A DNA stretch of 64,000 nt from Escherichia coli (GCF_024700885.2 NZ_CP117016.1), one strand, 5' to 3'. Positions 24,459-40,150 are shown, counted from the stretch's first letter. Made by a program: numbers and translations. Notes: a model not told the origin generated them from the letters alone.

Positions 24459-24469
24459 GGAGCAGGCTG

Positions 24470-25723: not shown

Positions 25724-25837
25724 ATAAAACCGGGTGATGCAAAAGTAGCCATTTGATTCACAAGGCCATTGACGCATCGCCCGGTTAGTTTTAACCTTGT
25801 CCACCGTGATTCACGTTCGTGAACATGTCCTTTCAGG

Positions 25838-25913
25838 GCCGATATAGCTCAGTTGGTAGAGCAGCGCATTCGTAATGCGAAGGTCGTAGGTTCGACTCCT
25901 ATTATCGGCACCA
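25838..25913 (+). tRNA. thrW: tRNA-Thr (anticodon CGT)
   Basis: 76 nt GCCGATATAGCTCAGTTGGTAGAGCAGCGCATTCGTAATGCGAAGGTCGTAGGTTCGACTCCTATTATCGGCACCA: acceptor stem pairs, T-loop GGTTCGA, encoded CCA. Confidence 0.95.
25897..25913 (+). repeat. attL core (3' end of thrW)
   Basis: TCCTATTATCGGCACCA, repeated with one G missing at 38138-38153. Confidence 0.8.
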
Positions 25914-26077
25914 TCACCTAGTTTTCCCAAGTCAACCCACATCAACAAAATCATTTAAAAACATATATATTACGTTGTTTTCATACGTTTGAGGTCAACC
26001 CTTGTCTCTTGAAATCAACACGCGGTTGGGGGCACAATCAGGGGCATGTTCTGTTCGGTCTAGGAAATGTGCCCCCA

Positions 26078-27268
26078 ATGATGCTGAATGCCCGCAAGGT
26101 TGAAGCTGCGAAAGGAAAAGAGAAGAGCTACAAGCTGTTTGATGGAGGTGGCCTATATCTTCAGGTCGAACCTAATGGCTCGCGTTACTGGCGTATGAAA
26201 TACCGTTTTGCTGGTAAAGAGAAACGATTGTCCTTTGGTGTTTATCCAACAGTCACACTTGCTGATGCCAGACAAAAACGAGAAGACGCGAAGAAACTAC
26301 TCGCAGCAGGTGAAGATCCCGGCGAAGTCAAAAAAGCCAAAAAGCAGGCTTTAAATGCAGCGATTGAGACACTTAACCCATTCAGAGAAGTGGCGTTAGA
26401 GTGGCACAAAATGAAATCACCCAAATGGTCTGAGGGCTATGCTTCCGACATCATTGAGGCATTCGAGAAAGACATTTTCCCGCATATTGGGCACAGACCT
26501 ATAGCTGATATTCAGCCCCTTGAACTGCTTGAAGTTCTGAGATTGATAGAAGCTCGAGGCGCTATGGAGAAAGCGAAGAAAGTCCGTCAGCGATGCGGTG
26601 AAGTTTTTCGCTATGCCATCGTAACGGGTAGGGCAATCTACAATCCGGCACCGGATCTTGCCAGTGCGATGCAAGGACATGAAGCAGTCCACTATCCATT
26701 CCTCAAAGCCAACGAACTACCGGAGTTCTTTAATGCCCTTAATTCTTATTCAGGAAGTCCAATTGTATTGTTGGGGGCGCATTTACTTATCCTGACAGGT
26801 CTACGAACTGGAGAACTACGAGCAGGTGAGTGGCGAGAGGTGGATTTTGATAATGCGGTGTGGGAGATCCCAAAAGAACGTATGAAAATGCGTAGGAGCC
26901 ATATTGTCCCGTTGTCAAAACAAGCATTATCCCATCTCAAAAGTTTGAAAGAACTAACTGGGAACTACCCGCTGATGTTCCCTGGACGCAACGATCCTAG
27001 CAAATTTATGAGTGAAGCAAGCATTAATCAGGTGTTTAAACGTATTGGATATGCAGGGCGTGTTACGGGGCATGGTTTCAGGCATACGATGAGTACAATC
27101 CTACATGAGAAAGGATTTAACAGCGCTTGGATTGAAACCCAGCTTGCTCATTCGGACAAAAACTCTATTCGTGGAATTTATAACCATGCCCAATATCTCG
27201 AAGGGAGAAGAGAAATGATGCAATGGTATGCTAATTATTTATCTGAGCTAATTGGTACTCATAAATGA
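26078..27268 (+). CDS. int: Tyrosine recombinase, P4-type integrase
   Basis: ORF 26009-27268 (TTG); likely ATG 26078: MMLNARKVEAAKGKEKSYKLFDGGGLYLQVEPNGSRYWRMKYRFAGKEKRLSFGVYP (P4-int N-terminal arm domain); catalytic HGFRHT...H..R..Y region near the C-terminus. Confidence 0.9.
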   Translation: MMLNARKVEAAKGKEKSYKLFDGGGLYLQVEPNGSRYWRMKYRFAGKEKRLSFGVYPTVTLADARQKREDAKKLLAAGEDPGEVKKAKKQALNAAIETLNPFREVALEWHKMKSPKWSEGYASDIIEAFEKDIFPHIGHRPIADIQPLELLEVLRLIEARGAMEKAKKVRQRCGEVFRYAIVTGRAIYNPAPDLASAMQGHEAVHYPFLKANELPEFFNALNSYSGSPIVLLGAHLLILTGLRTGELRAGEWREVDFDNAVWEIPKERMKMRRSHIVPLSKQALSHLKSLKELTGNYPLMFPGRNDPSKFMSEASINQVFKRIGYAGRVTGHGFRHTMSTILHEKGFNSAWIETQLAHSDKNSIRGIYNHAQYLEGRREMMQWYANYLSELIGTHK

Positions 27269-28089
27269 ATATTTTAAAAATTAATAATACTGATTCTCTG
27301 CTCAGAGATTACTACCAGTTGGATGAAGCTTCAGAAAAAATTGGTTGTAGTGAAAAGGATATACTCTGGTTTGCCAGAGAACGAGATGTAGAGCTATGCA
27401 TGGAATTCCATGATGATGAGTATGATGTTTCATGTGGTTTGAAGATTGATGGTCAAATGGATGAGTTCTTATCTAATCTGAAATATTTACCACGAGATAG
27501 AAATGGCAATATTATGTTGTCAGACTTAAGTTCTATAAGAATCCCTGATGAAGATAATTTAATTGATAAAAATGGTTTTATTCGATGTTTCATATCCGGT
27601 TTATGGGCTGTTGATTATGAATATAAAGATCTGTTAGTTAAGCATGAGGGGCAACCGGATTCCTGGCCTATTCATTTTCTACTGGCGGGTACGCCTAATA
27701 TAAATTGTAAGGTAATTCTTTATGTAAATTATGATGAAAAAGAAAATTATTATCTTTTTGAGGTTTTGTGGATTACAAAGGTACAGATTCAAAAATTCAT
27801 TGATATAGTCTTATGCGAACAAAAGCGGATAAAAAACGCCAATAAATATAAATCACAATCTGAGGCGCAAAAACAAAAACATGCTGTTCCTCGAGCTGAA
27901 ATACTCATGGCTATTATTTCGCTCTATCATCGTGATATGAGGCTAAGAAGAGAGAGTCCAGCAGCGATAGCTGATTATCTTTTTCAACATGCCAGTGAGT
28001 TCTGGCCTAAGACCGGAGAACCGCCTTTGAGCTATGATACTGTTGTTAGTTTGCTACGTAGTTGCATGAAAAACACTAAGTTTAACTAA
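27265..28089 (+). CDS. Hypothetical protein, translationally coupled to int (ATGA overlap), AT-rich
   Basis: 274-aa ORF; no family recognised by eye; possible N-terminal HTH (LDEASEKIGCSEKDILWFARE). Confidence 0.6.
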   Translation: MNILKINNTDSLLRDYYQLDEASEKIGCSEKDILWFARERDVELCMEFHDDEYDVSCGLKIDGQMDEFLSNLKYLPRDRNGNIMLSDLSSIRIPDEDNLIDKNGFIRCFISGLWAVDYEYKDLLVKHEGQPDSWPIHFLLAGTPNINCKVILYVNYDEKENYYLFEVLWITKVQIQKFIDIVLCEQKRIKNANKYKSQSEAQKQKHAVPRAEILMAIISLYHRDMRLRRESPAAIADYLFQHASEFWPKTGEPPLSYDTVVSLLRSCMKNTKFN

Positions 28090-28214
28090 ATATTAACAAT
28101 TATTGTGGCTAATGATTTTGGATTTTTTTCATTAGTCACATTTTTCTCATTTATAACCTATGTTTTAATTTTCCGTGTTGAAGCCAATAGACTTAGATAA
28201 ACGGAGAATGATGA

Positions 28215-28421
28215 ATGTTATCTAAACATGATAATACTACTTTGCAACGACCTTCAATGGATTCTCTGATCGATATGAAGTTTATTACTTCCGATTGTTT
28301 ATTAAGTGATAAATGGATTTATCGATTGATTTCTCTGAATCGCTTTCCAAAACCTATAAAAATAGGTCGGATGTCACGATGGCGCGCTGCTGATTATTAT
28401 AAGTGGCGAGATGGGTTTTAA
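28215..28421 (+). CDS. alpA: AlpA-family transcriptional regulator / excisionase-like protein
   Basis: 68 aa; SDKWIYRLISLNRFPKPIKIGRMSRWRAADYYKW matches the AlpA/Vis HTH pattern (..iyrli..g.FPkPikiG.rs.W...ev..W). Confidence 0.75.
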   Translation: MLSKHDNTTLQRPSMDSLIDMKFITSDCLLSDKWIYRLISLNRFPKPIKIGRMSRWRAADYYKWRDGF

Positions 28422-28537
28422 GAAAACTCAGGTCAACATTTTGAGGGAATGAGAAATAAGGCAAGAGCAATTAATAAAGGGAATAGATTATCACCTACTC
28501 CCTAAGCCTTAATTGATAGTTAGTAATATTTAACTGA

Positions 28538-28711
28538 TTAGCCTTTAGGGTCAATCCCGCGTGATTGGAGTTCTTTGCGTAAAATTCTTTTAATCCAAGT
28601 TGCCAACGCGCTATCTCCATCTTTGCGCATTTCGTTTTCGAGTTGCAACCTAAAATCGTCGGTAAGACGCATTTGGAATGGTGGAGAACGTTTCTCTTGT
28701 GGTGTTGACAT
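28538..28711 (-). CDS. Small ribbon-helix-helix (Arc/MetJ-like) DNA-binding protein, candidate satellite repressor
   Basis: 57-aa ORF below the ORF-track cutoff, translated by hand: MSTPQEKRSPPFQMRLTDDFRLQLENEMRKDGDSALATWIKRILRKELQSRGIDPKG; beta-strand FQMRL plus two helices; its start codon lies inside the operator repeat. Confidence 0.6.
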   Translation of the reverse strand: MSTPQEKRSPPFQMRLTDDFRLQLENEMRKDGDSALATWIKRILRKELQSRGIDPKG

Positions 28712-28751
28712 GGTAATTACCCTAGAATATGATGACTACATGGTAATTACC
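28705..28751 (+). promoter_or_regulatory. Early rightward promoter (TTGACA-17-TATGAT) bracketed by two ACATGGTAATTACC operator repeats
   Basis: TTGACA 28705-28710, TATGAT 28728-28733; 14-bp direct repeats at 28708-28721 and 28738-28751, each with the perfect palindrome GGTAATTACC. Confidence 0.65.
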
Positions 28752-28842
28752 ATTGTAAGTATAGTTCGCTTGTAAAAGCAATGCCCGATTGTGCGGGAAC
28801 ACAAATCGGGCATTTAACCAACCGTTATAAGAGGTAACGAAG

Positions 28843-29019
28843 ATGGCTAAACAGAAGTGTACTTGGTTATTTGCGGCGATCAACCGCAGTCAACGCAATG
28901 CCCGTCCTGTGATGTTAAGGATCACCGCAGATAACGAGCGGTCAGCGCGGCGCAGACTTGCCCCGGACTATGTACTGAGCTTTGCCGGGCGCATTCCCTG
29001 CGGAGGTGAACATGCGTAA
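28843..29019 (+). CDS. Icd-like host cell-division inhibitor family small protein
   Basis: 58-aa ORF translated by hand: MAKQKCTWLFAAINRSQRNARPVMLRITADNERSARRRLAPDYVLSFAGRIPCGGEHA; resembles remembered Icd-like proteins of P4-type elements (..ARP..L.v.A..E..ARR.La....LSFAaRlPv). Confidence 0.6.
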   Translation: MAKQKCTWLFAAINRSQRNARPVMLRITADNERSARRRLAPDYVLSFAGRIPCGGEHA

Positions 29020-29371
29020 TTATCCGCACCCCGGCGAACGCTGGCAGCATGAACGTGGCTGGACGGTCACGATTATCCGATTAATAGAAGCATCGCCCTC
29101 TGTGGCACTGGTTAATCCTGAATTCAGCTGTGAAGTGCTGATACGTCATGACAGCGACAACCAGCTTTCTTCCTGCCCTCTGGCATGGTTTGAACAGCGG
29201 TATACGCGCCTGTTTGATGTACCGCTCTTTAAGCCTGCACCAGCTCCTGCAGGCGGTAGTGGTTCCGGCCCGCTGACACTGCATCCGTCTGTGCTATTTA
29301 TCCGCTGGCGGGAGCGTAGCATATGGCGTTCTGCTGAGCCTGACGACGGTCACTATTCAAAGTTTCTCTGA
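29012..29371 (+). CDS. Hypothetical protein (satellite early operon)
   Basis: ORF 28982-29371; ATG 29012 overlaps the stop of the preceding gene (ATGCGTAA). Confidence 0.55.
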   Translation: MRNYPHPGERWQHERGWTVTIIRLIEASPSVALVNPEFSCEVLIRHDSDNQLSSCPLAWFEQRYTRLFDVPLFKPAPAPAGGSGSGPLTLHPSVLFIRWRERSIWRSAEPDDGHYSKFL

Positions 29372-29402
29372 CAAAATACCGCTGAAAACGGAGTAATCCA
29401 CG

Positions 29403-29687
29403 ATGAATATTTCAAACGGGCACAACGGTGCTCAGGGCCACACTTTGCCTGAAAAACACAATACCGGTGCTTTTGCCTATGGGTTGTCAGAGGACAGTTT
29501 CGGAAAGCTGACCCGCGCAAGAAATGCCTGCGACATGCTCCAGCTTCTCTTTTCTGAATACCCGTCTCAGGCCGGAGCACTGGACGCTGGCTGTGCGCAT
29601 GGTGTCGCCGCGCTGATGGAGTACCTGCTGGCAGATTTGACGGATATTGCACACAGCTGCGCACTGATTGAAGGAGGTGCCAGATGA
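29403..29687 (+). CDS. Hypothetical protein (satellite early operon)
   Basis: 94-aa ORF, same strand and GC style as neighbours; ATGA overlap with the next ORF. Confidence 0.55.
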   Translation: MNISNGHNGAQGHTLPEKHNTGAFAYGLSEDSFGKLTRARNACDMLQLLFSEYPSQAGALDAGCAHGVAALMEYLLADLTDIAHSCALIEGGAR

Positions 29688-30067
29688 ACCAGCCGCAGGT
29701 TTCCATTTTCCCGGCAGAAATGACCACCGCGCTTTACCGGCGGGCTATTGCTTCAGCATGGCGGCAGAAAATGCTGAACGAAACTGGCAGTGATCAGTAT
29801 GGTCCGCACAGCCTGACGGTGGAGCGTATTGAAATGGCCATTGCGCTGCATATCGAGTGCGTACTGATTAACGAGTACGGCGAAGTGCAGGGCGCCGCTG
29901 CCGCGCTGGCACTGCTGACTGACATGCTGGAGCCGTCACTGCTGACCGCGCCGCCGGTACTGACCGCGCGCGGCTGTGAAGTGATGGCGGAGATGTACCG
30001 CACGCTTCCGGCGGCCTTTGATGACTTCTGCAGTACCGGTGTGACGTTGTATGAGGGGGAAGTATGA
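29684..30067 (+). CDS. Hypothetical protein (satellite early operon)
   Basis: 127-aa ORF, ATGA-coupled on both sides. Confidence 0.55.
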   Translation: MNQPQVSIFPAEMTTALYRRAIASAWRQKMLNETGSDQYGPHSLTVERIEMAIALHIECVLINEYGEVQGAAAALALLTDMLEPSLLTAPPVLTARGCEVMAEMYRTLPAAFDDFCSTGVTLYEGEV

Positions 30068-32736
30068 CAATACAGACGGTTACGCAGATTTCAGCCGCCG
30101 CACGGGGGAAATGGCCCGTTATTCTGCAGATGCTGCGTATTGATGTACCTGAAAACGGCAGGCACGGTCCCTGCCCGAAATGTGGGGGCAAGGATCGTTT
30201 TCGCCTTGATGACCTTGACGGGCGCGGGACGTGGATCTGCAGCCAGTGTGGCAATGGTGACGGTCTGGATCTGGTTAAGCTCGTAACCGGTTACAGCGTC
30301 AGAAAGGCTGCGCAGGAGGTGGCGCAGGTGCTTAATGTGCCGAATATGCAGGAACTGCCTGTTAAGCCTGCCAGACAAAAAGCCCCTAAACGCGACATGG
30401 GTCTTACCGTGGCGGCGCTGATGAAAGAGAGCCACACGGGAGAAAGCGCCTATCTGACAGGAAAAGGGTTCGCCGGATACCCGGCCTCTCTGACCGGAAG
30501 CGTGCAGCATATCAGCGGTAAGGATTTCCCTGCCGGTTCCCTGCTGTTACCACTCACGACCAACACCGGAGCCGTGACCGGTGCACAGCTTATCGCCCCG
30601 ACGGGTGAAAAAAGCATACTGCCCGGCAGCACGATGAAAGGCGCGTTTGTGTCGCTCAGCCCGTTACCGTCTGAACCACCGGTACAGGTGGTGATTACCG
30701 AAGGTTACGCTACGGCGCTGACGGTAAGTCAGCTCACTGCCGGATGCGTAGTGGCTGCCATATCTGCGGGCAACCTGCCCAATGTGGCGCAGTCGCTGCG
30801 GGCACGCTGGCCTGAGGTAAAAATTATCATCGCCGGTGATAACGATTTTCAGGACGGAGATGAGAATCCCGGCAGAGCCTTTGCTGAACGGGCGGCAAAA
30901 GCTGTTGGCGGCTGGATGACGCTGCCACCAGGAGAGATTAAGGCTGACTGGAATGACTTTCATCGGGAGCACGGTATTACCCGTGCCCGTGAAGCCTTTC
31001 GCAACGGTCTGGTACTGTGCGGGGAAGGCCGCACGCAACTGCCGCACGGGTTCCGTCTTACCCAGGAATATCTCTGGTATGAAAAGCAGGTACAGCGCAA
31101 CGGTGAGACGGAGATCCAGAACGTCAAAATATGCAGCCCGCTGCGCGTGACGGCAATCACCTGCGATGCCGATGGCGGTAACTTCGGACGACTGCTGGAA
31201 TGGGAAGATACGTGGGGTGAGTGTCGCCGCTGGGCGATGCCGATGGAAATGCTGAGCGGCAGTGGTGAGGAACTGCGCCGGGTACTGCTGGTTAACGGGC
31301 TGTCTTATATCAGCACCACCGGTGAGGCACGCGCACGCCTGATGGAATATATCTCACTGTGTAAACCGGAACGCCGCGTGACCTGCGTCAGTCGTACTGG
31401 CTGGCATGGTCAGGTTTACGTCCTGCAGGATGAGGTCAGCGGTGAAGGTGCAGAGGGTGTCATTCTCCAGACCACTTCCGTGCAGGGGCGTGATTTCCGC
31501 GTGTCGGGCACAACAGAGGAATGGCGGGAGCATGTATCCCGCTACTGTACCGGCAACTCCCGCGTGGCATTTGCTGTCAGCCTGGCCTTTGCTGCACCAC
31601 TGTTACGGCTGGTTGGTATGGACGGCGGCGGCTACCACCTCAAAGGGGAATCGACAGACGGTAAGACCACCACCATGAAAGCGGCAACCTCCGTCTGCGG
31701 CGGGCCTGACTACTGGCAGACATGGCGGGCCACCGGCAACGCGCTGGAGGGATGCGCCAGCCGCCGCAACGATGCCGCCATGATGCTTGATGAGATCCGG
31801 GAAGTTGACGGACGCGAGGCAGGCAATATCGCCTACATGCTGGCAAACGGTCAGGGCAAGGGCCGTGCCGGTACGGACGGTGAGCTGCGTACCCGTAAGC
31901 AGTGGCGCCTGTTGTTCTTTTCAACTGGCGAGTTGTCTCTGACCGAACATGCGGCAAAGGCCGGTGAGCGTACTTTTGCCGGGATGGAAGTCAGGATGAT
32001 CCAGATCCCCAGCGATTCCGGGAAGTTTGGCGTTTTTGAGGAGCTGCACGGCTTCGACAGCGGCAAGGCTCTGGCAGAGCATCTTGAATGGGCCACGTCC
32101 TGCTACTACGGTTCGCCGTTCCGGGAGTGGCTGAAAGCACTGACCGCTGATCTTAACGGACTAACGGCACAGGCAAAATCGCTGATGAAGGAATATGCTG
32201 CCGCCCTGACTCCGAAAGATGCAGGCAATCAGGTGGGCCGGGCTGTGAACCGCTTTGCTCTGGTGGCGATGGCAGGTGAACTGGCAACCCGTCTGGGTAT
32301 CACCGGCTGGCCTGAGGGTGAAGCACTGCGGGCAACCCGCGTCTGCCTGAACGCATGGCTGAAAGATCGCGGGCACACCGCCAATCAGGAAGATATCGCC
32401 GCACTGGAGCAGGTTCGCAGTTTCTTTACCGCGAATCAGTACAGCCGCTTTGCAGACTGGTATGACGAGCGCAACCGCCCCGGCAATATGGTGGGCTGGC
32501 GCAGGGTGGAGAAAGGCAGTACCGCGCAGGGCACGGAAGCTGTCACTACGTTCTATGTCATGCCGTCCGGCTGGAAAGAAATCTGCAGGGGATTTGACCC
32601 GCGCAAGGTGGCGCGTCTGTGCGCAGATCGTGGATACCTGCTGCCCTCCACAGATGGCAAACTCCAGACAACCATTCGCCCGCCAGAGATGAATCCCCGC
32701 AGGCTCTATGTCTTCAACAGCGAGGTGCCTGGTTAA
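30064..32736 (+). CDS. P4 alpha-type bifunctional DNA primase / replicative helicase
   Basis: 890 aa; N-terminal Zn ribbon CPKCGGKDRFRLDD...CSQCG, Toprim-like acidic motif IIIAGDNDFQDGDENPG, helicase Walker A GESTDGKTT. Confidence 0.88.
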   Translation: MTIQTVTQISAAARGKWPVILQMLRIDVPENGRHGPCPKCGGKDRFRLDDLDGRGTWICSQCGNGDGLDLVKLVTGYSVRKAAQEVAQVLNVPNMQELPVKPARQKAPKRDMGLTVAALMKESHTGESAYLTGKGFAGYPASLTGSVQHISGKDFPAGSLLLPLTTNTGAVTGAQLIAPTGEKSILPGSTMKGAFVSLSPLPSEPPVQVVITEGYATALTVSQLTAGCVVAAISAGNLPNVAQSLRARWPEVKIIIAGDNDFQDGDENPGRAFAERAAKAVGGWMTLPPGEIKADWNDFHREHGITRAREAFRNGLVLCGEGRTQLPHGFRLTQEYLWYEKQVQRNGETEIQNVKICSPLRVTAITCDADGGNFGRLLEWEDTWGECRRWAMPMEMLSGSGEELRRVLLVNGLSYISTTGEARARLMEYISLCKPERRVTCVSRTGWHGQVYVLQDEVSGEGAEGVILQTTSVQGRDFRVSGTTEEWREHVSRYCTGNSRVAFAVSLAFAAPLLRLVGMDGGGYHLKGESTDGKTTTMKAATSVCGGPDYWQTWRATGNALEGCASRRNDAAMMLDEIREVDGREAGNIAYMLANGQGKGRAGTDGELRTRKQWRLLFFSTGELSLTEHAAKAGERTFAGMEVRMIQIPSDSGKFGVFEELHGFDSGKALAEHLEWATSCYYGSPFREWLKALTADLNGLTAQAKSLMKEYAAALTPKDAGNQVGRAVNRFALVAMAGELATRLGITGWPEGEALRATRVCLNAWLKDRGHTANQEDIAALEQVRSFFTANQYSRFADWYDERNRPGNMVGWRRVEKGSTAQGTEAVTTFYVMPSGWKEICRGFDPRKVARLCADRGYLLPSTDGKLQTTIRPPEMNPRRLYVFNSEVPG

Positions 32737-32770
32737 GGCTTTGCGTGAGTCTTATTTATTAAGGGTAACA

Positions 32771-32958
32771 GGTGAAACAGGTGGAACAACCGTATTTTAC
32801 AGGGCTGAACCTGTTCCACCTTCTGAAATAGTGAGGTGGAACAGATGTAACGCCAGCCAATCCGCTGTTCCACCTTGTTACCCGCGATGTTCCACCGGTG
32901 CAGTGTATATAAATGCCTTATAAAACAAAGCCGTAACACATGTTTCACCTGTTCCACC
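32771..32958. repeat. Origin-type iteron cluster: 8 copies of GGTGGAACA/TGTTCCACC around an AT-rich core
   Basis: Forward copies at 32771 (variant GGTGAAACA), 32780, 32835; reverse copies at 32812, 32866, 32888, 32941 (variant TGTTTCACC), 32950; AT-rich tatataaatgccttataaaacaaag at about 32905-32929. Confidence 0.75.
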
Positions 32959-33046
32959 GCATCAGGGACATAAAGCAGACTGAAACAGAGGGCATTTTTA
33001 TCTGGCTGGCTTTCATAGCCACGTCTGAATAACCGCAAGCGCCCGT

Positions 33047-33102
33047 TGTGCCAGCCACCACACACTGAACACCGATAGTGTGCTTGTGTCAGCCACGACA
33101 CA
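33047..33102 (+). promoter_or_regulatory. Ogr/Delta-dependent late promoter (two TGT-N12-ACA sites) upstream of sid
   Basis: TGTGCCAGCCACCACACA (33047-33064) and TGTGTCAGCCACGACACA (33085-33102), centres 38 bp apart; sid ATG at 33137 preceded by AGGAG. Confidence 0.65.
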
Positions 33103-33136
33103 ATTGACGTAACGAACCAACCCGACAGGAGAAGTC

Positions 33137-33880
33137 ATGAACAATACCGCAGTAAATAACAACCTTTCCACTTTTCCGGCTGTAACGCAGCGGGCACTGG
33201 AAACCATGAACACAGCCAGAAACGCATGGCTTGAAGCACGTCGTCAGCAGAAAGCGGCAGCGGATAATATTGCGACAATCCGCCAGCGTCGCGCTGAAAT
33301 GGAAGCCACGACGAACACACTGAATGAGGAGTGGCGCACGCTGTTTCGTGAAAGTCAGGGCGTGATCTCAAAGGAAATGAAAAAACTGCGCACGGAAATT
33401 GCGCTGGGACGAGAAACGCTTGAGGATTTTGATGAGCTGCTGGCGGCTCAGGAAAGCGAAAATGCACTTTTGCCGCAGAAAGCTGCAGAATTAGCCGGAA
33501 AGTATATCCACGCGCATAACATTCTTGTGGATATTCGCGCAAAACAAATCTGGGAGGATTTTATGCAGTCGCATGGAAAAGTGCTTATTCAGACGCTGAG
33601 CCTGCTTAAATCCACAATGGGCCGGGAAGCCAGTGCCGTTGTGGGTGTGGTGAATTCAGTTAATGACCCGGACACAGTGCTGAAAGACTTTATTCATAAA
33701 TATATCACCAGACCGGCTCTGGCTAACGATGCGATGCCTGAGCAGGACCCGGTGTTTAAACTGGCGGGAGTTGCCCCGGATTATGCGGCGCGTCTGGATT
33801 TCAGTAATCAACTCTCTCCGGCAGCTATGCATAAAATTAAGGTTCGTCAGGAACTTGCTGAGAAGGAGAAAGCAGTATGA
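33137..33880 (+). CDS. sid: Sid-like capsid size-determination (external scaffold) protein
   Basis: 247 aa; segment EEWRTLFRESQGVISKEMKKLRTEIALGRETLEDFDEL parallels remembered P4 Sid (DDWRTAFRAAGGVLSDELKQRHIE...); size and position fit. Confidence 0.7.
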   Translation: MNNTAVNNNLSTFPAVTQRALETMNTARNAWLEARRQQKAAADNIATIRQRRAEMEATTNTLNEEWRTLFRESQGVISKEMKKLRTEIALGRETLEDFDELLAAQESENALLPQKAAELAGKYIHAHNILVDIRAKQIWEDFMQSHGKVLIQTLSLLKSTMGREASAVVGVVNSVNDPDTVLKDFIHKYITRPALANDAMPEQDPVFKLAGVAPDYAARLDFSNQLSPAAMHKIKVRQELAEKEKAV

Positions 33881-34428
33881 CGGCCCGAGGCACGCCTGAC
33901 CAGGCACTTACCAGTTTTCGGAATGCCCGTATTCTGTGGGCCGGACATAATGAGAGCCGAAAAGCCGTTGAACAACAGATAACATCTCTCCTCGCTGCCA
34001 CAGAAAAACCAGCAGATTATGCCCGACAGCTCGAATTACTGCGGGAACGTCTGGATGTGCTGAAATGGCAAATTAACTGTGCTGCGCGCGAATGCATTTA
34101 CTCGCAGCATTTACTGATGGAGGCCTGCACAGAAGCCGCTCTCAGCAATTTTATGCAGGCGAATGGGGCAGCCCTGACATCTGCACTGGCTCCGTTCCTG
34201 AAGGGGCGCGGAGGGGTTGACGTTGCGTCCCGTATATTACGCAGTGCTCTGGTTCGCCAGCTGGCAATAACACCGCCTGAATTTGCCGGGGATTATCGTG
34301 AGATCCTGGATGAATCCGGTTTGATGCTTGACCCCGGGATGATTCGTGATTGCCAGGGTTCTTACACCCCGGCACAACATCTGCGTTTTCAGCAACGCCT
34401 GAATGACATTAACGATATACAGGAGTGA
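33877..34428 (+). CDS. psu: Psu-like polarity-suppression / capsid decoration protein
   Basis: 183 aa; FMQANGAALTSALAPFLKG parallels remembered P4 Psu FMQQHGTALAAALAPELMG; ATGA-coupled to sid. Confidence 0.7.
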   Translation: MTARGTPDQALTSFRNARILWAGHNESRKAVEQQITSLLAATEKPADYARQLELLRERLDVLKWQINCAARECIYSQHLLMEACTEAALSNFMQANGAALTSALAPFLKGRGGVDVASRILRSALVRQLAITPPEFAGDYREILDESGLMLDPGMIRDCQGSYTPAQHLRFQQRLNDINDIQE

Positions 34429-34433
34429 TATTA

Positions 34434-34706
34434 ATGGCACTTAAATGTCCGGAATGCGGTACAGTTGCACACGCCAGAACAGCAGCCTATGAAGCTCCGT
34501 CAGTTAAACGCTCGTGGTATCAGTGCCAGAATCTGGAATGTTCCTGCACATTTACGGCACTGGAGAGTGTGGATAAGATAATCATGAAACCCCGGCGCAA
34601 TGAACAGGAACCAGACAAATCACAAACCCCGGTAAAACAACAGCAAACGCTCAATCGCTATGGCTCCGCGTCAAAACTGTCAAGCCGTCAGCAGATTCCT
34701 GTCTGA
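34434..34706 (+). CDS. Ogr/Delta-family zinc-finger late transcription activator
   Basis: MALKCPECGTVAHARTAAYEAPSVKRSWYQCQNLECSCTFTALESV: CxxC-N22-CxxxxC Ogr/Delta finger; AGGAG RBS at 34421-34425. Confidence 0.85.
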   Translation: MALKCPECGTVAHARTAAYEAPSVKRSWYQCQNLECSCTFTALESVDKIIMKPRRNEQEPDKSQTPVKQQQTLNRYGSASKLSSRQQIPV

Positions 34707-34727
34707 TTAGAAAAAAAATGCCCACGT

Positions 34728-34754
34728 AATCCCGGTCGAGTACTGGGATTTTTA
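34728..34754 (+). terminator. Rho-independent terminator of the sid-psu-delta late operon
   Basis: aatcccgg tcgagta ctgggatt + ttt (8-bp stem with one G-U, T-run). Confidence 0.65.
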
Positions 34755-34916
34755 ACACCTTACCCCTGGCTGGCCTGAGAGCGCATGAGTGCATGTCTAT
34801 GGCGCATGAAAACGCATGAGTCTCATGCACCATTTTTGACGCGAAAGCCCTTGTGTGGTGGCTTCTGAGACGATTAATGAGGTGCATGAAAACCAGTCTG
34901 TTAAGTGAAGCGGGAA

Positions 34917-34935
34917 GGCGTGCGGGGCTGCGCAC
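34917..34935. other. Candidate P2/P4-type cos (cohesive end) sequence
   Basis: GGCGTGCGGGGCTGCGCAC matches the remembered 19-nt P2/P4 cohesive end GGCGAGGCGGGGAAAGCAC at 12 of 19 positions (both ends conserved); location after psu/delta, as in P4. Confidence 0.35.
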
Positions 34936-35260
34936 GTAGCAGGGTTAAATGGTCAATTCTGGCGCAGCTCACGACATTAAGTCAGCCTCAATAGATGTAC
35001 GTGTTGGTAGGGGTAATTCGCTACTTTTTTGTATCCTAAATTGTATGGTTTGATGCTGATCGTTTCTTCACCGCACCTGCAGAGATATCAATTCAATGTG
35101 GACAAAAATGAGTCTGGCTCTTTCCGTATCACTAGAATTGCCAGTATTGTTAGGGATGATGCCCATATCATACGGAGGGAGCCAGTGGGGGCGATTGCGC
35201 GTGGAAAGTGCTTTGGATTTATTCATCGGTTTTATGATTCTACATAAGGAGCAAAGGTAC

Positions 35261-35289
35261 TTGTATCGTATGAAAAAAAATAGTATAGA
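35261..35289 (+). promoter_or_regulatory. Candidate retron promoter (TTGTAT-17-TATAGA)
   Basis: -35 at 35261-35266, -10 at 35284-35289; places the transcription start at the first base of the a1 repeat (~35295). Confidence 0.45.
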
Positions 35290-35294
35290 TATAA

Positions 35295-35457
35295 TGCTCC
35301 TTACGCGTTATGGCATAGTTATATGCTAGTCGGGCGATTAGCCAGACTCGAACTTATTGAACGGTATTAGGGTTGCGCTTGGTGTGCCTCTGGATTGCAC
35401 TCCATGCTGTCGCGCAATCCAGAGGCACACCAAGCGCTTCCTTTAGGTAAGTGAGTA
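35295..35457 (+). ncRNA. Retron msr-msd non-coding RNA (predicted)
   Basis: a1 TGCTCCTTAC (35295-35304) pairs with a2 GTAAGTGAGTA (35447-35457); G35305 directly 3' of a1 in CTTAC-G-CG context; two short msr hairpins (35311-35328, 35329-35347); 24-bp perfect msd hairpin 35375-35398/35414-35437; immediately upstream of effector and RT genes. Confidence 0.7.
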
Positions 35458-35529
35458 AAAACAGCACCTTCTTCGATTTATGATGAAGGTGCTGCAATCG
35501 TAACGTTTTTTGTATACACGGATAGTATA

Positions 35530-36498
35530 GTGGCTGAGACATACGAAGATAAAGTTGCTAATCATGTTTCAGAGTGGGAAATGGAAAATTTCCGTGTATG
35601 TTATGATGATCAGGTTATTTTCTTATGTGGTGCGGAAGTACTTCCTCAAGGAAGTGTTCAGACTTCAATGAGAGGGCATTTTTATCACTATTGCCTGAAT
35701 AAAAATAAAGATATAGCTGATAAAATAATTCTTGCCGAAAACTTCAAAAAATATCTTCAAAATAATCATTATCCAGACTTAATAACTTTTGAGCATGATG
35801 TTGCAAGTATATCTAGTTTAGTTGTTATTTTCTTGGAAAGCAGTGGTTCAATTGCTGAGTTAGGTGTTTTCTGTAATATTAGTGATGTCAATAAAAAATT
35901 ATTGATATTTGTTCCATCAGATGAAGTTGAAGGTGACAAGAAAGAGTCTTTCATTTACTTAGGGCCTTTATTGTTTTTAAAAGAAAAGGTCAATGAAAAA
36001 GCATTTAAGATTTATCCAAAACCCACTAATGGTTCTGATTACTCCGAGCATTTAGAGATTATGGCTGATGACTTGGCTGAACTATTACCTAGAAGTGGTA
36101 AGTTTGAAAGCTTCGATCCTGACAATTTAGGGCATATAGCTTTTCTTATATGCAGAATTGTGCATTTAGTAATGCCTATTAAGCTAAAGGAAATATTAAA
36201 TTGTTTAAAAATAATAGGTATCAATAAATATACTCTGACTGAGGTTGAAAGAATTTTGTTTTTATTGGAAACATTGGGTTTTATAAATATTTATCCGTAT
36301 GGCGATTTAAAATACTATTATTCAATGCAAGCCAGGCAAAATCTTAAATTAGGGAAAAATAAAACCGGATTCACAATCGATGAGGCTGGTATTTTTACTG
36401 ATATTAGTGTTTTTATCAATGACAATAAATTATGTAGTGATAAAAAAAGACGGCTGGTTTTGAAAGGCATTAAGGAGAAGCATAATGGACATAATTAA
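35530..36498 (+). CDS. Retron effector: nucleoside deoxyribosyltransferase-like N-domain plus C-terminal winged-helix-like domain (St85/Ec73-type layout)
   Basis: 322-aa ORF (GTG start; ATG at 35581 is an alternative); Rossmann-like VIFLCGAE and FLESSGSIAELGVF (candidate catalytic Glu) typical of NDT-like retron effectors; overlaps the RT start by 14 nt. Confidence 0.7.
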   Translation: MAETYEDKVANHVSEWEMENFRVCYDDQVIFLCGAEVLPQGSVQTSMRGHFYHYCLNKNKDIADKIILAENFKKYLQNNHYPDLITFEHDVASISSLVVIFLESSGSIAELGVFCNISDVNKKLLIFVPSDEVEGDKKESFIYLGPLLFLKEKVNEKAFKIYPKPTNGSDYSEHLEIMADDLAELLPRSGKFESFDPDNLGHIAFLICRIVHLVMPIKLKEILNCLKIIGINKYTLTEVERILFLLETLGFINIYPYGDLKYYYSMQARQNLKLGKNKTGFTIDEAGIFTDISVFINDNKLCSDKKRRLVLKGIKEKHNGHN

Positions 36499-37417
36499 AA
36501 AAATCGCAGATGAAACTCTAATGCCGGTATCAAAAGTATCTGCTTTTATATTTACAGCCCCATATAGATATAAAGTATATCCCATCCCCAAAAGGAATGG
36601 TGGGTTTAGGGAGATTGCTCAACCGTCAAGGGCATTAAAGTTTATGCAAAGGATTGTTATTGCTGAACTAGAGAAAGTACTTAAGGTTCATGAAAACGCA
36701 TATGCTTATGTCAAAGGACGTAGTATAAAAGATAATGTGGAAAAGCATCAAAGAAACTCTTATATTTTGAAAGTTGATTTCTGCGACTTTTTTAATAGCA
36801 TAAACCCTTACGACCTTGAGTTATGTTTAAAAAACAATGGGTTAGACTCATTGTTAAGCTCACAAGAATTATTGAATAAACTTTTTTTCTATAAGAAAAG
36901 TAAAAGAGGTGCTTTATCAATGAGCATCGGGGCACCTAGTTCTCCATTTTTGTCAAATGCGATTATGTATAAGTTTGATTCAGTCATTAGTGATATGTGT
37001 TCAAATAAAAATATTACTTATACAAGATATGCTGATGATCTTACATTTTCTACTAATGAAAAAGGTATTTTGTATGAATTCATACATGAAATAGATAAAG
37101 TTCTTGAGGAGATAGATAGTCCTAAATTAAAACTAAATGATAAGAAAACCATATTTGCATCTAAAAAATGCAATCGTCATATAACAGGAATTGTTATTAA
37201 TAACGAAGAAAAACTTTCAATTGGTAGAGATAAAAAACGTTACTTAAGTAGTTTAATTCATAAATTCTCGCTTAATGCACTTAATGAGGAAGGAGTTGAA
37301 CATTTAAAAGGGTATTTGGCGTATGTAAATAAAATTGAACCTTCATTCATTAGCAGAATGAAAAGGAAATATGGAGTCGAAGTTGTCAACTCCATAATCA
37401 CATTTAATCCATTATAA
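36485..37417 (+). CDS. ret: Retron-type reverse transcriptase
   Basis: 310 aa; RT motifs FREIAQPS, NAYAYVKGRSIKDN, KVDFCDFFNSI, IGAPSSPFLSN, catalytic YTRYADDLTFS and retron-typical ITGIVIN (VTG) motif; no maturase, endonuclease or other extra domains. Confidence 0.9.
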   Translation: MDIIKKIADETLMPVSKVSAFIFTAPYRYKVYPIPKRNGGFREIAQPSRALKFMQRIVIAELEKVLKVHENAYAYVKGRSIKDNVEKHQRNSYILKVDFCDFFNSINPYDLELCLKNNGLDSLLSSQELLNKLFFYKKSKRGALSMSIGAPSSPFLSNAIMYKFDSVISDMCSNKNITYTRYADDLTFSTNEKGILYEFIHEIDKVLEEIDSPKLKLNDKKTIFASKKCNRHITGIVINNEEKLSIGRDKKRYLSSLIHKFSLNALNEEGVEHLKGYLAYVNKIEPSFISRMKRKYGVEVVNSIITFNPL

Positions 37418-37894
37418 ATGTGAACTTATTATATTTATAATGGTTGTGCTTTTTTCTTGTACCTTAGGGGTGTAAAAGAATGTCATCATGAAGATAATTA
37501 AAAAATGAATGGCAATAAGAGTAATAGGTAACATTTTTTCAATATCACTTAAATGGCGATGCCTTTTTTGTGTAATAACTTCCTCTTCTCTTTTGAAAGG
37601 AGTTATACCTATCTTGACCTCCATCTCCTGAATTACTGTAAACTTAGCAGCATTAATTCTTTTATAGGAAGTAATTAGATTTATCCAATAGATATTAATT
37701 ACGACTCCAGCGAGAGAGATTAAGATTACCCAAATAGGCTGTATTGTTGGCTTTAAAGAAAAATATCCAACAAGCGGTAAAATAGAAGAGTTTAAGGCTA
37801 ATAAAAATGTATTTGACTTAAGTCTTCGATCACTTATTCTATCCGCCATCTCAACGCATGTTTTATATATTTCTATGACTTTATCATCCGTCAC
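37412..37894 (-). CDS. Small predicted 3-TM membrane protein of unknown function (candidate defence/abortive-infection effector)
   Basis: 160 aa; amphipathic N-terminal helix IEIYKTCVEMADRISDRRLKSNTF, then hydrophobic segments FLLALNSSILPLVGYFSL, IWVILISLAGVVINIYWINLI, MLPITLIAIHFLIIFMMTFFY; AT-rich; stop overlaps the RT stop. Confidence 0.65.
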   Translation of the reverse strand: MTDDKVIEIYKTCVEMADRISDRRLKSNTFLLALNSSILPLVGYFSLKPTIQPIWVILISLAGVVINIYWINLITSYKRINAAKFTVIQEMEVKIGITPFKREEEVITQKRHRHLSDIEKMLPITLIAIHFLIIFMMTFFYTPKVQEKSTTIINIISSHL

Positions 37895-38137
37895 TAATAG
37901 TATCCTTATAAATTTCTGAGTTGTTCAAATAAATGTTATCATATATTTTTATCAACGTAATATGTATTTTTACGTATTTTTAACTGTGAGAGATACATAG
38001 TGATTGTTGGGTGCATGTACAATCCTTGATACTTAACAATGAAAGCGTAGTTGTGGGGGGGGGGCATATTTGGGGGCATTACTATTTAATCTTTCTTGAT
38101 TTTTATTATAAAACAACTGGTTGTATTGATGTTTTGT

Positions 38138-38153
38138 TCCTATTATCGCACCA
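38138..38153 (+). repeat. attR core (pseudo-thrW 3' end)
   Basis: TCCTATTATCGCACCA = attL 25897-25913 minus one G; next base T also shared. Confidence 0.75.
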
Positions 38154-38280
38154 TTTAAATCAAGTAGTTACCTCACATTCAATTACACCACATTTTCCTC
38201 CTGTGCCGTATTTGTGCCATTGTAACCCTGGCAATTCATCAAAATACTGTTCTGACATCAGGCAGTGCAGGTGCAGACAT

Positions 38281-38514
38281 TTAAGCCAATTGCTGCCGCC
38301 ATTCCTTGACGTGGTCAATCAGGGCGCGGAGCTTTGGTGCAATATTGCGACGCTGTGGGAAATACAGATAGAAGCCCGGAAATTGTGGAAGAAAGTCATC
38401 AAGCAGCGATACAAGCTTACCGCTTTCAATATATGGCCTGAAAGTTTCCTGAGTGGCAATTGTTATGCCTGCGCCGGCAAGAGCCAGCCTCAACATCAGA
38501 CGCAGATCATTCTG
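38281..38514 (-). pseudogene. LysR-family regulator, C-terminal ~77 codons only
   Basis: QNDLRLMLRLALAGAGITIATQETFRPYIESGKLVSLLDDFLPQFPGFYLYFPQRRNIAPKLRALIDHVKEW: LysR effector-domain C-terminus; in-frame stop immediately upstream, no HTH part. Confidence 0.7.
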
Positions 38515-38594
38515 CTAATCCCACCGATGCTTCGGTCTGGAGTGGTAAATTAATATTGGACACAGTTTTATTTTCTCTCTTTTTCGAGGGCTAT

Positions 38595-38875
38595 ATGAAC
38601 AGGAAGAATACATCCCTAAGCGGTTAATGCTGGCGTAATCAATAGACCAGCATTAATCACAGATGATTACCAATCAGACAGAAATGGTTAAATCGTCGAA
38701 TTCATATTTAATACGTTTTCTTACGCCGCTGAGCAACTTGAAAGCAGGAAAAGGATGTATATTTTAAATATCAGTGAAGTGAACAGTTTATTGCCGTTAT
38801 TAATAGAGATGGAGGAATAAATAGGCGTATTCTACTATTGCAACAAAAACAACGATAATGATCAGTTTTCATAAT
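38595..38875. repeat. Collapsed, diverged second copy of the ykgO-3'/terminator and ykgR segments
   Basis: 38595-38735 aligns by eye with 57206-57345, and 38745-38875 with 58035-58165; the ykgR-like frame here has an in-frame TGA where the N-terminus should be. Confidence 0.7.
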
Positions 38876-39079
38876 GAAGTAACCTGACAGATATAAAAAT
38901 GTTGATTGAGGCTAAATGCCCGGATGAAGGTTGTCGAGGGAGCCAGGTGGTTTTTTCTTTTGGGTGATCTCCATTGCTGGATAGTCCTCTCTTTCTCGCT
39001 CAAAGCAGACCCTGGAATTGAATGCAGAGGGACTACCTGACACAATTTTGCACAGTGAAGAGTCGGTCGTTATTAACGT

Positions 39080-39964: not shown

Positions 39965-40150
39965 TGAAACATCCCCCCTTCATGCCGGCAATCTCCGCAT
40001 TAATTTATAACAATATGGTATTAATCTTAGCATTAATCGCCCCCTAATCAGCACTAATTCTGCTCACTATAATGACCCCATCAAAGTAAAGCACCGCAGC
40101 GTTGTCCGTCGGAAACCTGTATCTCTCTGTTGTTTTTTATGGGGATTTTT

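What the first reader, a model, noticed from the sequence alone, without database searches (positions are those of the whole stretch)
32771..32958. Iteron origin: eight GGTGGAACA/TGTTCCACC repeats in mirrored arrangement right after the primase-helicase gene
Seen: the forward copies start at 32771 (GGTGAAACA variant), 32780 and 32835. The reverse copies start at 32812, 32866, 32888, 32941 (TGTTTCACC variant) and 32950. A tandem pair sits at each outer edge in opposite orientation, and an AT-rich segment lies at about 32905-32929. Established: the P4 alpha protein binds type I iterons (TGTTCACC, as I recall) in ori and crr. The repeat here differs by one extra C. Inference: this is the satellite ori (or a fused ori/crr), recognised by the adjacent alpha-type protein, with altered specificity relative to P4.
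Basis: partly seen in the sequence, partly recalled or inferred. Interest (0 to 1): 0.5.

Follow-up and report, generated by a model that had tools for sequence, protein, structure and literature searches.

The report
Iteron replication origin of P4-like satellite
A 200-base cluster of a repeated 9-letter DNA word just after a phage satellite's primase-helicase gene is very probably that satellite's replication origin; it is of a kind already known from related mobile elements, so the find is sound but not surprising.

Summary
All eight GGTGGAACA/TGTTCCACC copies lie at the stated coordinates and orientations. There is one other exact copy in 64 kb, against 0.5 expected. The AT-rich patch is 20% GC. 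Four further degenerate copies give a 12-site array, 32762-32958.

The element is a P4-like satellite at tRNA-Thr, with int, AlpA, a sid-like gene, psu, delta and a retron.

The neighbouring 890-aa protein is only partly "alpha-type". Its first 316 aa (Zn-ribbon and Toprim) resemble P4 alpha. The rest is a DUF927 helicase with a C-terminal winged-helix domain, homologous to SaPI Rep and SCCmec Cch. It is unrelated to alpha's D5-type helicase and DNA-binding domain.

In about 50 homologous loci across Enterobacterales the same array layout follows the gene. The 9-mer changes in concert by clade (GGTGTAACA, CTGGTAACA, GTGGATACA, TGTAGTACA and others). These switches coincide with substitutions in the predicted recognition helix and wing (aa 846-871; K866/R866).

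The best reading is a SaPI/PICI-type origin bound by the cognate self-loading helicase, here in a P4-like satellite. It is one array, not P4's separate ori and crr. It is a new member of a known kind. No replication or binding was tested.

The parts
30064..32736 (+). Gene for the presumed initiator, 890 aa. Domains: Zn-ribbon (aa 32-68), Toprim (209-304), DUF927 helicase (330-612; Walker A GESTDGKTT at 528, Walker B MLDEI at 574), helical linker, and C-terminal winged-helix-like domain (about 796-890).
   Evidence: Pfam hits. The N-terminus is 39% identical to P4 alpha over 316 aa. The helicase core matches SaPI Rep 8tch (E 4.6e-15) and Cch 5dgk. The C-terminal model matches 8tch, TcpK and 5dgk.
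32747..32755 (+). GAGTCTTAT, a non-iteron motif just upstream of the array. TCTTAT is invariant in 13 lineages whose iterons differ. Function unknown.
   Evidence: Alignment A3. In L039 the array is displaced 1.1 kb from the gene, and a near-identical GAGTATTAT still precedes it.
32762..32788 (+). Left outer tandem triple at 9-bp pitch: AGGGTAACA (degenerate), GGTGAAACA, GGTGGAACA.
32812..32820 (-). Inner iteron TGTTCCACC.
32835..32852 (+). Inner forward pair: GGTGGAACA followed by the decayed copy GATGTAACG. Close relatives have GGTGGAACG at the second position.
32866..32884 (-). Inner reverse pair: TGTTCCACC followed by the degenerate copy TGTTACCCG.
32888..32896 (-). Inner iteron TGTTCCACC, next to the AT-rich segment.
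32905..32929 (.). AT-rich segment GTATATAAATGCCTTATAAAACAAA (20% GC), the presumed unwinding element. The family consensus here is CTTTTAAATCAA.
   Evidence: That melting occurs here is inferred by analogy with SaPI and PICI origins (PMC9371898, PMC6092414).
32932..32958 (-). Right outer tandem triple at 9-bp pitch: CGTAACACA (degenerate), TGTTTCACC, TGTTCCACC.
33047..33102 (+). Neighbouring feature, not part of the origin. Two TGT-N12-ACA dyads (33047-33064 and 33085-33102) lie in front of the sid-like gene at 33137. This is a Psid-type late promoter.
   Evidence: (D4). The 38-bp spacing and the 35-bp distance to the ATG are the same as for the P4 dyads at 9493-9510 and 9531-9548, read. An Ogr/Delta gene is present at 34425-34706. 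That such dyads bind Ogr/Delta is my own knowledge of P2/P4 late promoters.

Best explanation
The array at 32762-32958 is the vegetative replication origin of a P4-like satellite integrated at tRNA-Thr. It works like a SaPI/PICI Rep origin.

The product of the upstream gene is a fusion of a P4-alpha-like primase with a DUF927 helicase of the SaPI Rep/Cch type. Its C-terminal winged-helix domain binds the 9-bp iterons. The oppositely oriented iteron sets bring helicase rings onto the DNA on either side of the AT-rich segment (32905-32929), which melts. The helicase loads itself without a separate loader, and its own Toprim domain lays down primers.

Shown here:
- the repeats and their enrichment;
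- the domain make-up and homologies of the protein;
- conservation of the array's position and layout across about 50 loci, with concerted change of the iteron word;
- purifying selection on the iterons;
- amino-acid changes at the predicted DNA-reading surface that coincide with iteron switches.

Inferred, not shown: binding, melting at the AT-rich patch, helicase self-loading, and replication itself.
For: 1. Enrichment and uniqueness of the repeat.

3. In 50 homologous loci (58-100% identity) a 5-13-copy array starts about 25-45 nt after the stop codon. Site positions are nearly fixed: about +26 to +53 forward, +77 reverse, +99 and +108 forward, +130 to +150 reverse, then the AT-rich stretch, then +200 to +220 reverse. 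The word itself differs by clade and changes at all sites together.

4. The three apparent exceptions carry the array 1.1 kb downstream, behind an inserted integrase gene.

5. The iteron word is absent from the rest of each 10-15 kb locus, with one exception.

6. Within the GGTGGAACA class, 4 of 72 iteron columns vary, against 39 of 140 spacer columns.

7. In aa 325-890 a single column separates the iteron classes without overlap: K866 versus R866. Near-identical protein pairs with different iterons differ at 846 and 850 (start of the predicted recognition helix) and at 862-871 (the following strand and wing). Xenorhabdus pairs with the same iteron show 0 of about 50 differences in that stretch.

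8. The neighbouring genes (int, AlpA, sid, psu, delta) are absent or unrecognisable in many loci that keep the array. L050 and L051 even lack the primase domain. The DUF927 plus C-terminal-domain gene is therefore the only constant partner.

9. A 34%-identical full-length homologue, on a 12,152-bp record deposited as circular, has GTTGGTTCA x3 and TGAACCAAC x3 in the same place.

10. No DnaA box, IHF consensus, promoter or terminator consensus, or Rfam hit offers an alternative reading of the interval.
Against: - Nothing functional was tested. Binding, melting and replication all rest on analogy.
- The sliding-window correlation between protein segments and iteron type was weak and diffuse.
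- The K866/R866 split rests on perhaps two independent switches, and the region 840-870 is variable in the family anyway. Same-iteron pairs still place 9.8% of their differences there, against 5% expected from its length.
- Between the 96%-identical GGTGGAACA and GGTGTAACA groups, no position in aa 320-890 tracks the iteron word across the wider family.
- The AT-rich patch is not central. Nine sites lie to its left and three to its right, unlike the roughly symmetric SaPI picture.
- The AT-rich patch is only 25 nt long.
Confidence: 0.8

Rival explanations
1. This is a true P4-type origin. The adjacent protein is an alpha orthologue whose C-terminal DNA-binding domain has shifted specificity from TGTTCACC to TGTTCCACC.
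For: The N-terminal 316 aa are 39% identical to P4 alpha. The iteron differs from the P4 type I repeat by one inserted base. The array occupies both the P4 crr position (after alpha) and the P4 ori position (before sid). The element carries P4-type sid-like, psu and delta genes and a DUF5375 gene upstream of the primase, as in P4.
Against: The helicase is DUF927, not D5_N/DUF5906, and there is no Pox_D5 C-terminal domain. BLASTP finds nothing beyond residue 316. A profile of the C-terminal domain against the last 110 aa of alpha gives probability 0.14%. The fold searches return SaPI Rep and Cch, and no P4 alpha domain is among the listed matches. There is no P4-type octamer in the region and no second cluster. 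Relatives use very different words.
Confidence: 0.03
2. The array is an auxiliary cis site, not the point of initiation. It could be a crr-like enhancer, or a copy-number or incompatibility site that titrates or handcuffs the initiator. Replication would start elsewhere in the element.
For: P4 needs such a second iteron site (crr), and it lies exactly at this position relative to alpha. Iteron arrays in plasmids are known to serve in copy control (my own knowledge).
Against: No other cluster of the word exists in the element or in the 10-15 kb around any homologue. The array carries its own AT-rich segment, flanked by opposed iterons, which is the full origin design of SaPI and PICI elements (PMC9371898, PMC6092414). 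Copy control could be an additional role and need not be an alternative.
Confidence: 0.07
3. The repeats are operators for transcriptional control. Examples would be autoregulation or termination of the early operon, or gating of the downstream late (sid-psu-delta) operon, either by the primase-helicase or by another regulator such as AlpA or Delta.
For: The array lies between the end of the early operon and a Psid-type promoter. Initiators often autoregulate through their iterons (my own knowledge). Inverted copies could form hairpins in a read-through transcript (I7 and I9).
Against: The late-promoter elements are accounted for separately, and with the same geometry as in P4. The array persists in loci with no detectable AlpA, sid, psu or delta. 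No promoter-like or terminator-like site was found. Tandem direct copies and 12 sites spread over 200 bp are not what a hairpin or a simple operator needs. The word changes in step with the initiator's winged helix.
Confidence: 0.07
4. This is a chance or decaying repeat with no function.
For: Four of the twelve sites are degenerate in this copy.
Against: No shuffle of 100 reaches the observed count. The layout is conserved across genera. Iteron columns are about five times less variable than spacers. The same DNA is present in 327 of 5426 complete E. coli genomes.
Confidence: 0.01

Closest known systems
SaPI Rep and ori (Staphylococcus aureus pathogenicity islands; Rep structures 8tch, and PriRep5/Rep1 in PMC9371898) and the related SCCmec Cch helicase (5dgk)
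   Same: The helicase core is homologous by sequence. The C-terminal domain is homologous by fold. The origin lies directly 3' of the initiator gene. It has many short iterons, an AT-rich stretch, and at least two iterons on each side in opposite orientation. A primase can be fused to Rep, as in SaPI5 PriRep5.
   Different: The iterons here are 9-mers at 9-bp pitch, not penta- or hexanucleotides. The array is asymmetric about the AT-rich patch (9 sites against 3). The fused primase is a Zn-ribbon/Toprim domain related to P4 alpha. The host is a Gram-negative bacterium and the carrier is a P4-like satellite, not a PICI.
E. coli PICI origin, EcCICFT073 pri-rep-ori (Fillol-Salom et al. 2018, PMC6092414)
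   Same: The design is the same: an array of about 230 bp right after the replicase gene, tandem iterons at both edges in opposite orientation, and an AT-rich interior. The gene neighbourhood is similar: int, an AlpA-like HTH, Icd-like, small ORFs, replicase, all on one strand. This origin has been tested for function.
   Different: The EcCICFT073 replicase is D5_N plus DUF5906 plus Pox_D5, that is, the P4-alpha type of helicase and DNA-binding domain, with no Toprim. Its iteron is TGTCTACC. It carries capsid and PerC genes, not sid, psu and delta. A PICI-like 12-kb circular record (L060) does carry a Toprim-DUF927 homologue with its own iterons.
Satellite phage P4 ori and crr with the alpha protein
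   Same: The primase domain is homologous. The iteron word is similar (GGTGAACA against GGTGGAACA). The array sits after the replicase gene, like crr, and about 175 bp upstream of sid next to two TGT-N12-ACA dyads, like ori. The satellite gene set matches (sid-like, psu, delta, DUF5375, integrase).
   Different: P4 has two separate sites 4.5 kb apart, and this element has one. P4 uses an octamer and this element a nonamer. P4 ori also carries type II repeats, and no counterpart was looked for here. The alpha helicase and DNA-binding domain are replaced by non-homologous ones.
Iteron plasmid origins (RepA, pi and TrfA type: pSC101, R6K, RK2, F)
   Same: An initiator encoded next to an array of its own binding sites, plus an AT-rich unwinding element.
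   Different: According to my own knowledge, those origins use 17-22-bp directly repeated iterons, DnaA boxes, and a host DnaB loaded by DnaC. Here the sites are 9-mers in opposed sets. There is no DnaA box, IHF consensus or GATC. The initiator is itself a helicase-primase.

Membership tests
SaPI/PICI-type Rep-ori module | The origin lies immediately 3' of the initiator (rep or pri-rep) gene. | tested here: met
   The first site starts 26 nt after the stop codon. The same holds in about 47 of 50 homologous loci. In the other three, an integrase gene is inserted between the gene and the array.
SaPI/PICI-type Rep-ori module | Multiple short iterons in two sets of opposite orientation flank an AT-rich region (at least two on each side). 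| tested here: met
   Forward triple at 32762-32788, reverse triple at 32932-32958, and a 20% GC patch at 32905-32929. Caveat: the AT-rich patch is off-centre.
SaPI/PICI-type Rep-ori module | The initiator is a Rep-type (MCM-like, DUF927) hexameric helicase with a C-terminal winged-helix domain. | tested here: met
SaPI/PICI-type Rep-ori module | The initiator binds its own iterons specifically, and the segment replicates autonomously. | not testable with these tools
   Only indirect evidence is available: concerted iteron change by clade, and covariation at aa 846, 850 and 862-871, including K866/R866.
SaPI/PICI-type Rep-ori module | The carrier element is a PICI (PICI gene set, not a P4-type hijacking module). 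| tested here: not met
   The carrier has sid-like, psu and ogr/delta genes and a Psid-type promoter. The module is of the PICI/SaPI kind, but the element is P4-like.
P4 ori/crr-alpha system | Type I iteron octamer TGTTCACC/GGTGAACA. | tested here: not met
   There is no copy in 32737-33136. GGTGAACA occurs at 6442, 7052 and 29005 only, as expected by chance. The word here is a nonamer.
P4 ori/crr-alpha system | Two cis sites, ori and crr, several kb apart, both needed. | tested here: not met
   There is a single cluster in the window and in every related locus. Whether both halves of the one array are needed was not testable.
P4 ori/crr-alpha system | The initiator has alpha's architecture: Zn-ribbon/Toprim primase, D5-type SF3 helicase and Pox_D5 C-terminal DNA-binding domain. 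| tested here: not met
   Only the primase part matches. hhalign of the C-terminal domains gives probability 0.14%.
P4-like satellite (the carrier element) | Integrase, psu, sid, delta, alpA and a replicase within a 10-12 kb island at a tRNA gene. | tested here: met
   tRNA-Thr at 25838-25913. int, an AlpA-like gene, Psu-family genes x2 and Ogr/Delta. An epsilon homologue was not looked for.
Iteron-plasmid origin (RepA, pi or TrfA type) | 17-22-bp direct iterons with DnaA boxes, and an initiator that lacks helicase activity. | tested here: not met
   The sites are 9-mers in opposed sets. There is no DnaA box. The initiator carries helicase and primase domains.

The most novel reading that the evidence does not exclude
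In this lineage of P4-like satellites one compact array may do the work that P4 divides between ori and crr. It would be served by a chimeric initiator that joins a P4-alpha-type primase to a SaPI-Rep-type self-loading helicase. The family may also offer a readable winged-helix-to-iteron recognition code (positions 846, 850, 866-871), with natural near-isogenic specificity switches such as L023/L024, which differ at 13 residues (GGTGTAACA to CTGGTAACA). That would allow orthogonal satellite replicons to be engineered and incompatibility between co-resident satellites to be predicted. The invariant GAGTCTTAT motif that travels with the array could be a fixed priming or loading signal read by a conserved part of the protein.
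Probability: 0.25. Interest if true: 0.5.

Novelty: new member of a known kind. Interest (0 to 1): 0.35.

Why it matters
Exactly this module is carried by 327 of 5426 complete E. coli genomes, and relatives occur across Enterobacterales. These satellites ferry anti-phage systems; here the cargo is a retron. The P4-like satellite survey I read (PMC8628076) does not discuss origins.

Knowing where the satellites start replication, and which protein reads the site, has practical uses:
- it tells which satellites can coexist or compete in one cell;
- it gives a handle for building or curing them;
- it shows that the P4-like "alpha" slot can be filled by a non-homologous, SaPI-Rep-type helicase that brings its own style of origin.

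The clade-by-clade iteron switches, paired with a handful of amino-acid changes, form a ready-made natural experiment on how initiator specificity evolves.

Tried and rejected
1. A strict search for residues separating the GGTGGAACA group from the GGTGTAACA group found none. The nine positions that differ between the two 96%-identical groups do not track iteron type across the family. The fifth base may be weakly read.

2. A sliding-window partial correlation between protein distance and iteron distance gave only weak, diffuse signals, at 525-550, 590-620 and 840-890. I report it as inconclusive and rely on close-pair contrasts instead.

3. A full-text search for the iteron words returned only primer sequences. 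The search for DUF927 with P4 failed because the term was too short. The 1993 paper on the multifunctional P4 alpha protein (origin recognition, helicase, primase) is not held.

4. The P4 cos end (19 nt, up to 3 mismatches) and blastn of the whole P4 genome against 24-40 kb found only the integrase region. cos in this element remains unlocated.

5. No direct repeat of 15 nt or longer marks attL and attR.

6. Promoter and terminator scans, Rfam, and DnaA/IHF/GATC pattern searches found nothing in the interval.

7. The apparent absence of iterons in L039, L047 and L056 was resolved: the array sits behind an inserted integrase gene.

8. The small Salmonella "plasmid" OX345456 is a linear 7-kb record and says nothing about autonomous replication.

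9. I considered reading the inverted copies as RNA hairpins or a terminator. I set this aside because tandem direct copies change in concert too, and no T-tract follows.

Full report
**Observation.** The sequence between the stop codon of ORF 30064-32736 and the next gene (ATG at 33137) contains GGTGGAACA at 32780 and 32835 on the + strand, and at 32812, 32866, 32888 and 32950 on the - strand. Seven exact copies occur in the 64-kb window, against 0.52 expected. None of 100 shuffles reached seven, and the one copy outside the cluster (4250) is what chance predicts. No other 250-nt stretch of the window has any 8-mer five or more times. The AT-rich segment 32905-32929 is 20% GC, in the lowest 2% of 25-nt windows. 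Aligning the interval with relatives shows four more decayed copies, at 32762, 32844, 32876 and 32932. The array is therefore a 12-site structure with a tandem triple at each edge, the two triples pointing towards each other.

**Context.** The window is E. coli chromosome. The same 500 bases occur in 327 of 5426 complete E. coli genomes, at 90-100% identity. The array lies in an island of about 12 kb next to tRNA-Thr(CGT) at 25838-25913. The island's genes, in order, are:
- an integrase;
- an AlpA-like regulator;
- an Icd-like gene;
- a DUF5375 gene;
- the 890-aa primase-helicase;
- the array;
- two Psu-family genes, the first in the position of sid;
- an Ogr/Delta zinc-finger gene;
- a retron (msr RNA at 35296-35365, St85-type effector and reverse transcriptase).

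This is a P4-like satellite. Directly downstream of the array are two TGT-N12-ACA dyads, at 33047 and 33085. They have the same 38-bp spacing and the same 35-bp distance to the start codon as the two dyads in front of P4 sid. The intergenic region therefore holds two separate things: the array and a Psid-type late promoter.

**The neighbouring protein.** Residues 5-316 (Zn-ribbon and Toprim) are 39% identical to P4 alpha, and nothing beyond that aligns. P4 alpha continues with D5_N, DUF5906 and a Pox_D5 C-terminal domain. This protein continues with DUF927 (E 2e-90), whose solved relatives are the SaPIbov1 Rep initiator (8tch, E 4.6e-15) and the SCCmec Cch helicase (5dgk).

**Comparative evidence.** A scan of species-representative genomes gave 55 loci encoding relatives at 58-100% identity. 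In nearly all loci with sequence beyond the gene, the 500 bases after the stop codon hold 5-13 copies of one 9-mer. The word depends on the clade:
- GGTGGAACA;
- GGTGTAACA;
- GGGGTAACA;
- TGGGTAACA;
- (A)CTGGTAACA;
- GTGGTAACA;
- GTGGATACA;
- TGTAGTACA.

The positions and orientations of the sites relative to the stop codon are almost constant, and in the alignment every site changes to the new word together. The word has no exact copy in the rest of each 10-15 kb locus, apart from one copy in L023.

Three loci that seemed to lack an array have 10-11 copies of GTGGGAACA, in the same layout, 1.1 kb further on. They lie behind a tyrosine-recombinase gene inserted between the replicase gene and the array.

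Among loci that share GGTGGAACA, 4 of 72 iteron columns vary, against 39 of 140 spacer columns.

The surrounding genes are not constant. Many loci keep the array but show no detectable AlpA, sid, psu or delta. Two loci (L050, L051) have a 700-aa protein without the primase domain yet with the same array. A 34%-identical full-length homologue, on a 12,152-bp circular E. coli record with PICI-type genes, has GTTGGTTCA x3 and TGAACCAAC x3 in the same place. The one constant partner of the array is the DUF927 helicase with its C-terminal domain.

**Who reads the iterons.** Broad correlation tests were inconclusive. Close-pair contrasts were informative.
- Xenorhabdus L023 (GGTGTAACA) and L024 (CTGGTAACA) differ at 13 of 568 positions. 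Four of these are P846S, S850A, K866R and T870S.
- Proteus L025 and L028 (GGTGTAACA against TGGGTAACA) differ at six positions, including A846T and T867P.
- L019 and L020 differ at 18 positions, six of them at 862-871.
- Xenorhabdus pairs with the same iteron have none of about 50 differences in 844-872.

Position 866 is the only column in residues 325-890 that separates the iteron classes without overlap. K goes with GGTGG-, GGTGT-, GGGGT- and TGGGT-type words, and R goes with the rest. In the model, 846-855 is the second helix of the helix-turn-helix and 868-871 with 879-884 form the hairpin after it. These are the usual DNA-reading parts of a winged helix. The pairs are not independent and the segment is variable in general, so I treat this as suggestive support, not proof.

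**Mechanism.** Published work on SaPI Reps describes a C-terminal winged-helix domain that recognises iterons. In those elements 6-12 iterons lie immediately after rep, around an AT-rich region, with at least two iterons on each side in opposite orientation. Binding and melting are ATP-independent, and the helicase loads itself (PMC9371898). The PICI paper reports the same origin organisation in E. coli PICIs and tested the EcCICFT073 pri-rep-ori segment as a replicon (PMC6092414). I read that origin in CFT073. It has TGTCTACC iterons with tandem pairs at both edges in opposite orientation, although its replicase is of the D5/Pox_D5 type.

The array in the window matches this design and its initiator matches the Rep family. 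There is no DnaA box, IHF consensus, GATC, promoter-like or terminator-like site, or Rfam match in the interval.

I therefore conclude, with about 80% confidence, that 32762-32958 is the satellite's origin. It would be bound by the C-terminal domain of the upstream protein, melted at 32905-32929 and unwound by the self-loaded helicase, with priming by the fused Toprim domain. Binding, melting, loading and replication are inferred; none was tested.

**Relation to P4.** The P4 record confirms GGTGAACA/TGTTCACC as the type I repeat. It places crr directly after alpha and ori directly before sid. In this element alpha and sid are neighbours, so one array occupies both positions, and there is no second cluster.

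The idea that the word is P4's with one base inserted, read by an alpha-type domain of altered specificity, is not supported. The reading domain is not homologous to alpha's. The family's words vary widely, and the decayed sites in this copy (GGGTAACA, TGTTACCC) look like the words used by other clades.

**Novelty and interest.** The kind of system is known: a SaPI/PICI-type Rep-ori module, and more loosely the P4 iteron origin. I did not find this particular family described, that is, a Toprim-DUF927 replicase with a 9-mer array in P4-like satellites. The P4-like satellite survey (PMC8628076) does not discuss origins. I rate it a new member of a known kind, with moderate interest. The most useful by-product is the set of near-isogenic initiator and iteron switches.

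Noticed in passing
window 33047-33064 and 33085-33102: Two near-identical TGT-N12-ACA dyads (TGTGCCAGCCACCACACA and TGTGTCAGCCACGACACA) lie 38 bp apart, and the second ends 35 bp before the sid-like ATG. The geometry is identical to the two dyads before P4 sid (L002 9493-9510 and 9531-9548). This is probably an Ogr/Delta-activated late promoter.
   Followed up: partly
window 32747-32755; L039 about 9812-9820: GAGTCTTAT precedes the array, and TCTTAT is invariant in 13 lineages whose iterons differ. In L039 the array is displaced 1.1 kb from the gene, and GAGTATTAT still precedes it. The motif therefore belongs to the origin and not to the gene's 3' end. Its function is unknown.
   Followed up: partly
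window 35296-37417: The satellite's variable region carries a retron: msr RNA (Rfam RF00170, 53 bits) at 35296-35365, an St85-family effector at 35530-36498 and a reverse transcriptase at 36485-37417. A RipA-family membrane protein gene lies on the other strand at 37412-37894.
   Followed up: partly
window 32987-33002 and 35671-35686: An exact 16-nt direct repeat, AGAGGGCATTTTTATC, occurs twice. One copy lies between the origin and the late promoter, and the other lies inside the retron effector ORF. About 0.02 such pairs are expected by chance in 13.7 kb. It is unexplained.
   Followed up: no
L039 8649-9656 (also L047 and L056): In three relatives (Klebsiella, Scandinavium, Apirhabdus) a tyrosine-recombinase gene is inserted between the replicase gene and its iteron array (GTGGGAACA, 10-11 copies). 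In L039 a PIN-domain gene follows the array.
   Followed up: partly
L051 5263-7344 and L050 (gene ends at 7701): These are 693-706-aa DUF927 proteins with no Zn-ribbon or Toprim domain, and with a 130-aa N-terminus that has no Pfam match. They are followed by the same array layout. L051 (Serratia), only 65% identical to the window protein, uses the same GGTGGAACA word in 11-12 copies and sits near an AntA antirepressor gene.
   Followed up: partly
L060 (NZ_CP148430.1, 12,152 bp, circular): An E. coli record deposited as a plasmid looks like an excised PICI-type island (integrase, AntA, Icd-like, PerC). It carries a 918-aa Toprim-DUF927 protein and GTTGGTTCA/TGAACCAAC iterons right after the gene.
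   Followed up: partly
window 24000-40000: No P4-type cos was found (the 19-nt P4 end with up to 3 mismatches, or blastn of the P4 cos junction). No direct repeat of 15 nt or longer marks attL and attR. At the DNA level only the integrase region resembles P4 (69% identity).
   Followed up: partly
window 33137-33880 and 33877-34428: Two Psu-family genes lie in tandem. The first (247 aa) matches Pfam Psu only weakly (2e-9, C-terminal part) and occupies the position of sid. The gene order sid-like, psu, delta differs from P4's sid, delta, psu.
   Followed up: no
window 32762-32770, 32844-32852, 32876-32884: The decayed sites in this copy read (A)GGGTAACA, GATGTAACG and TGTTACCCG. They are closer to the words used by other clades (GGGGTAACA, GGTGTAACA) than to GGTGGAACA. 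They may be leftovers of an earlier iteron type that was not fully converted.
   Followed up: partly
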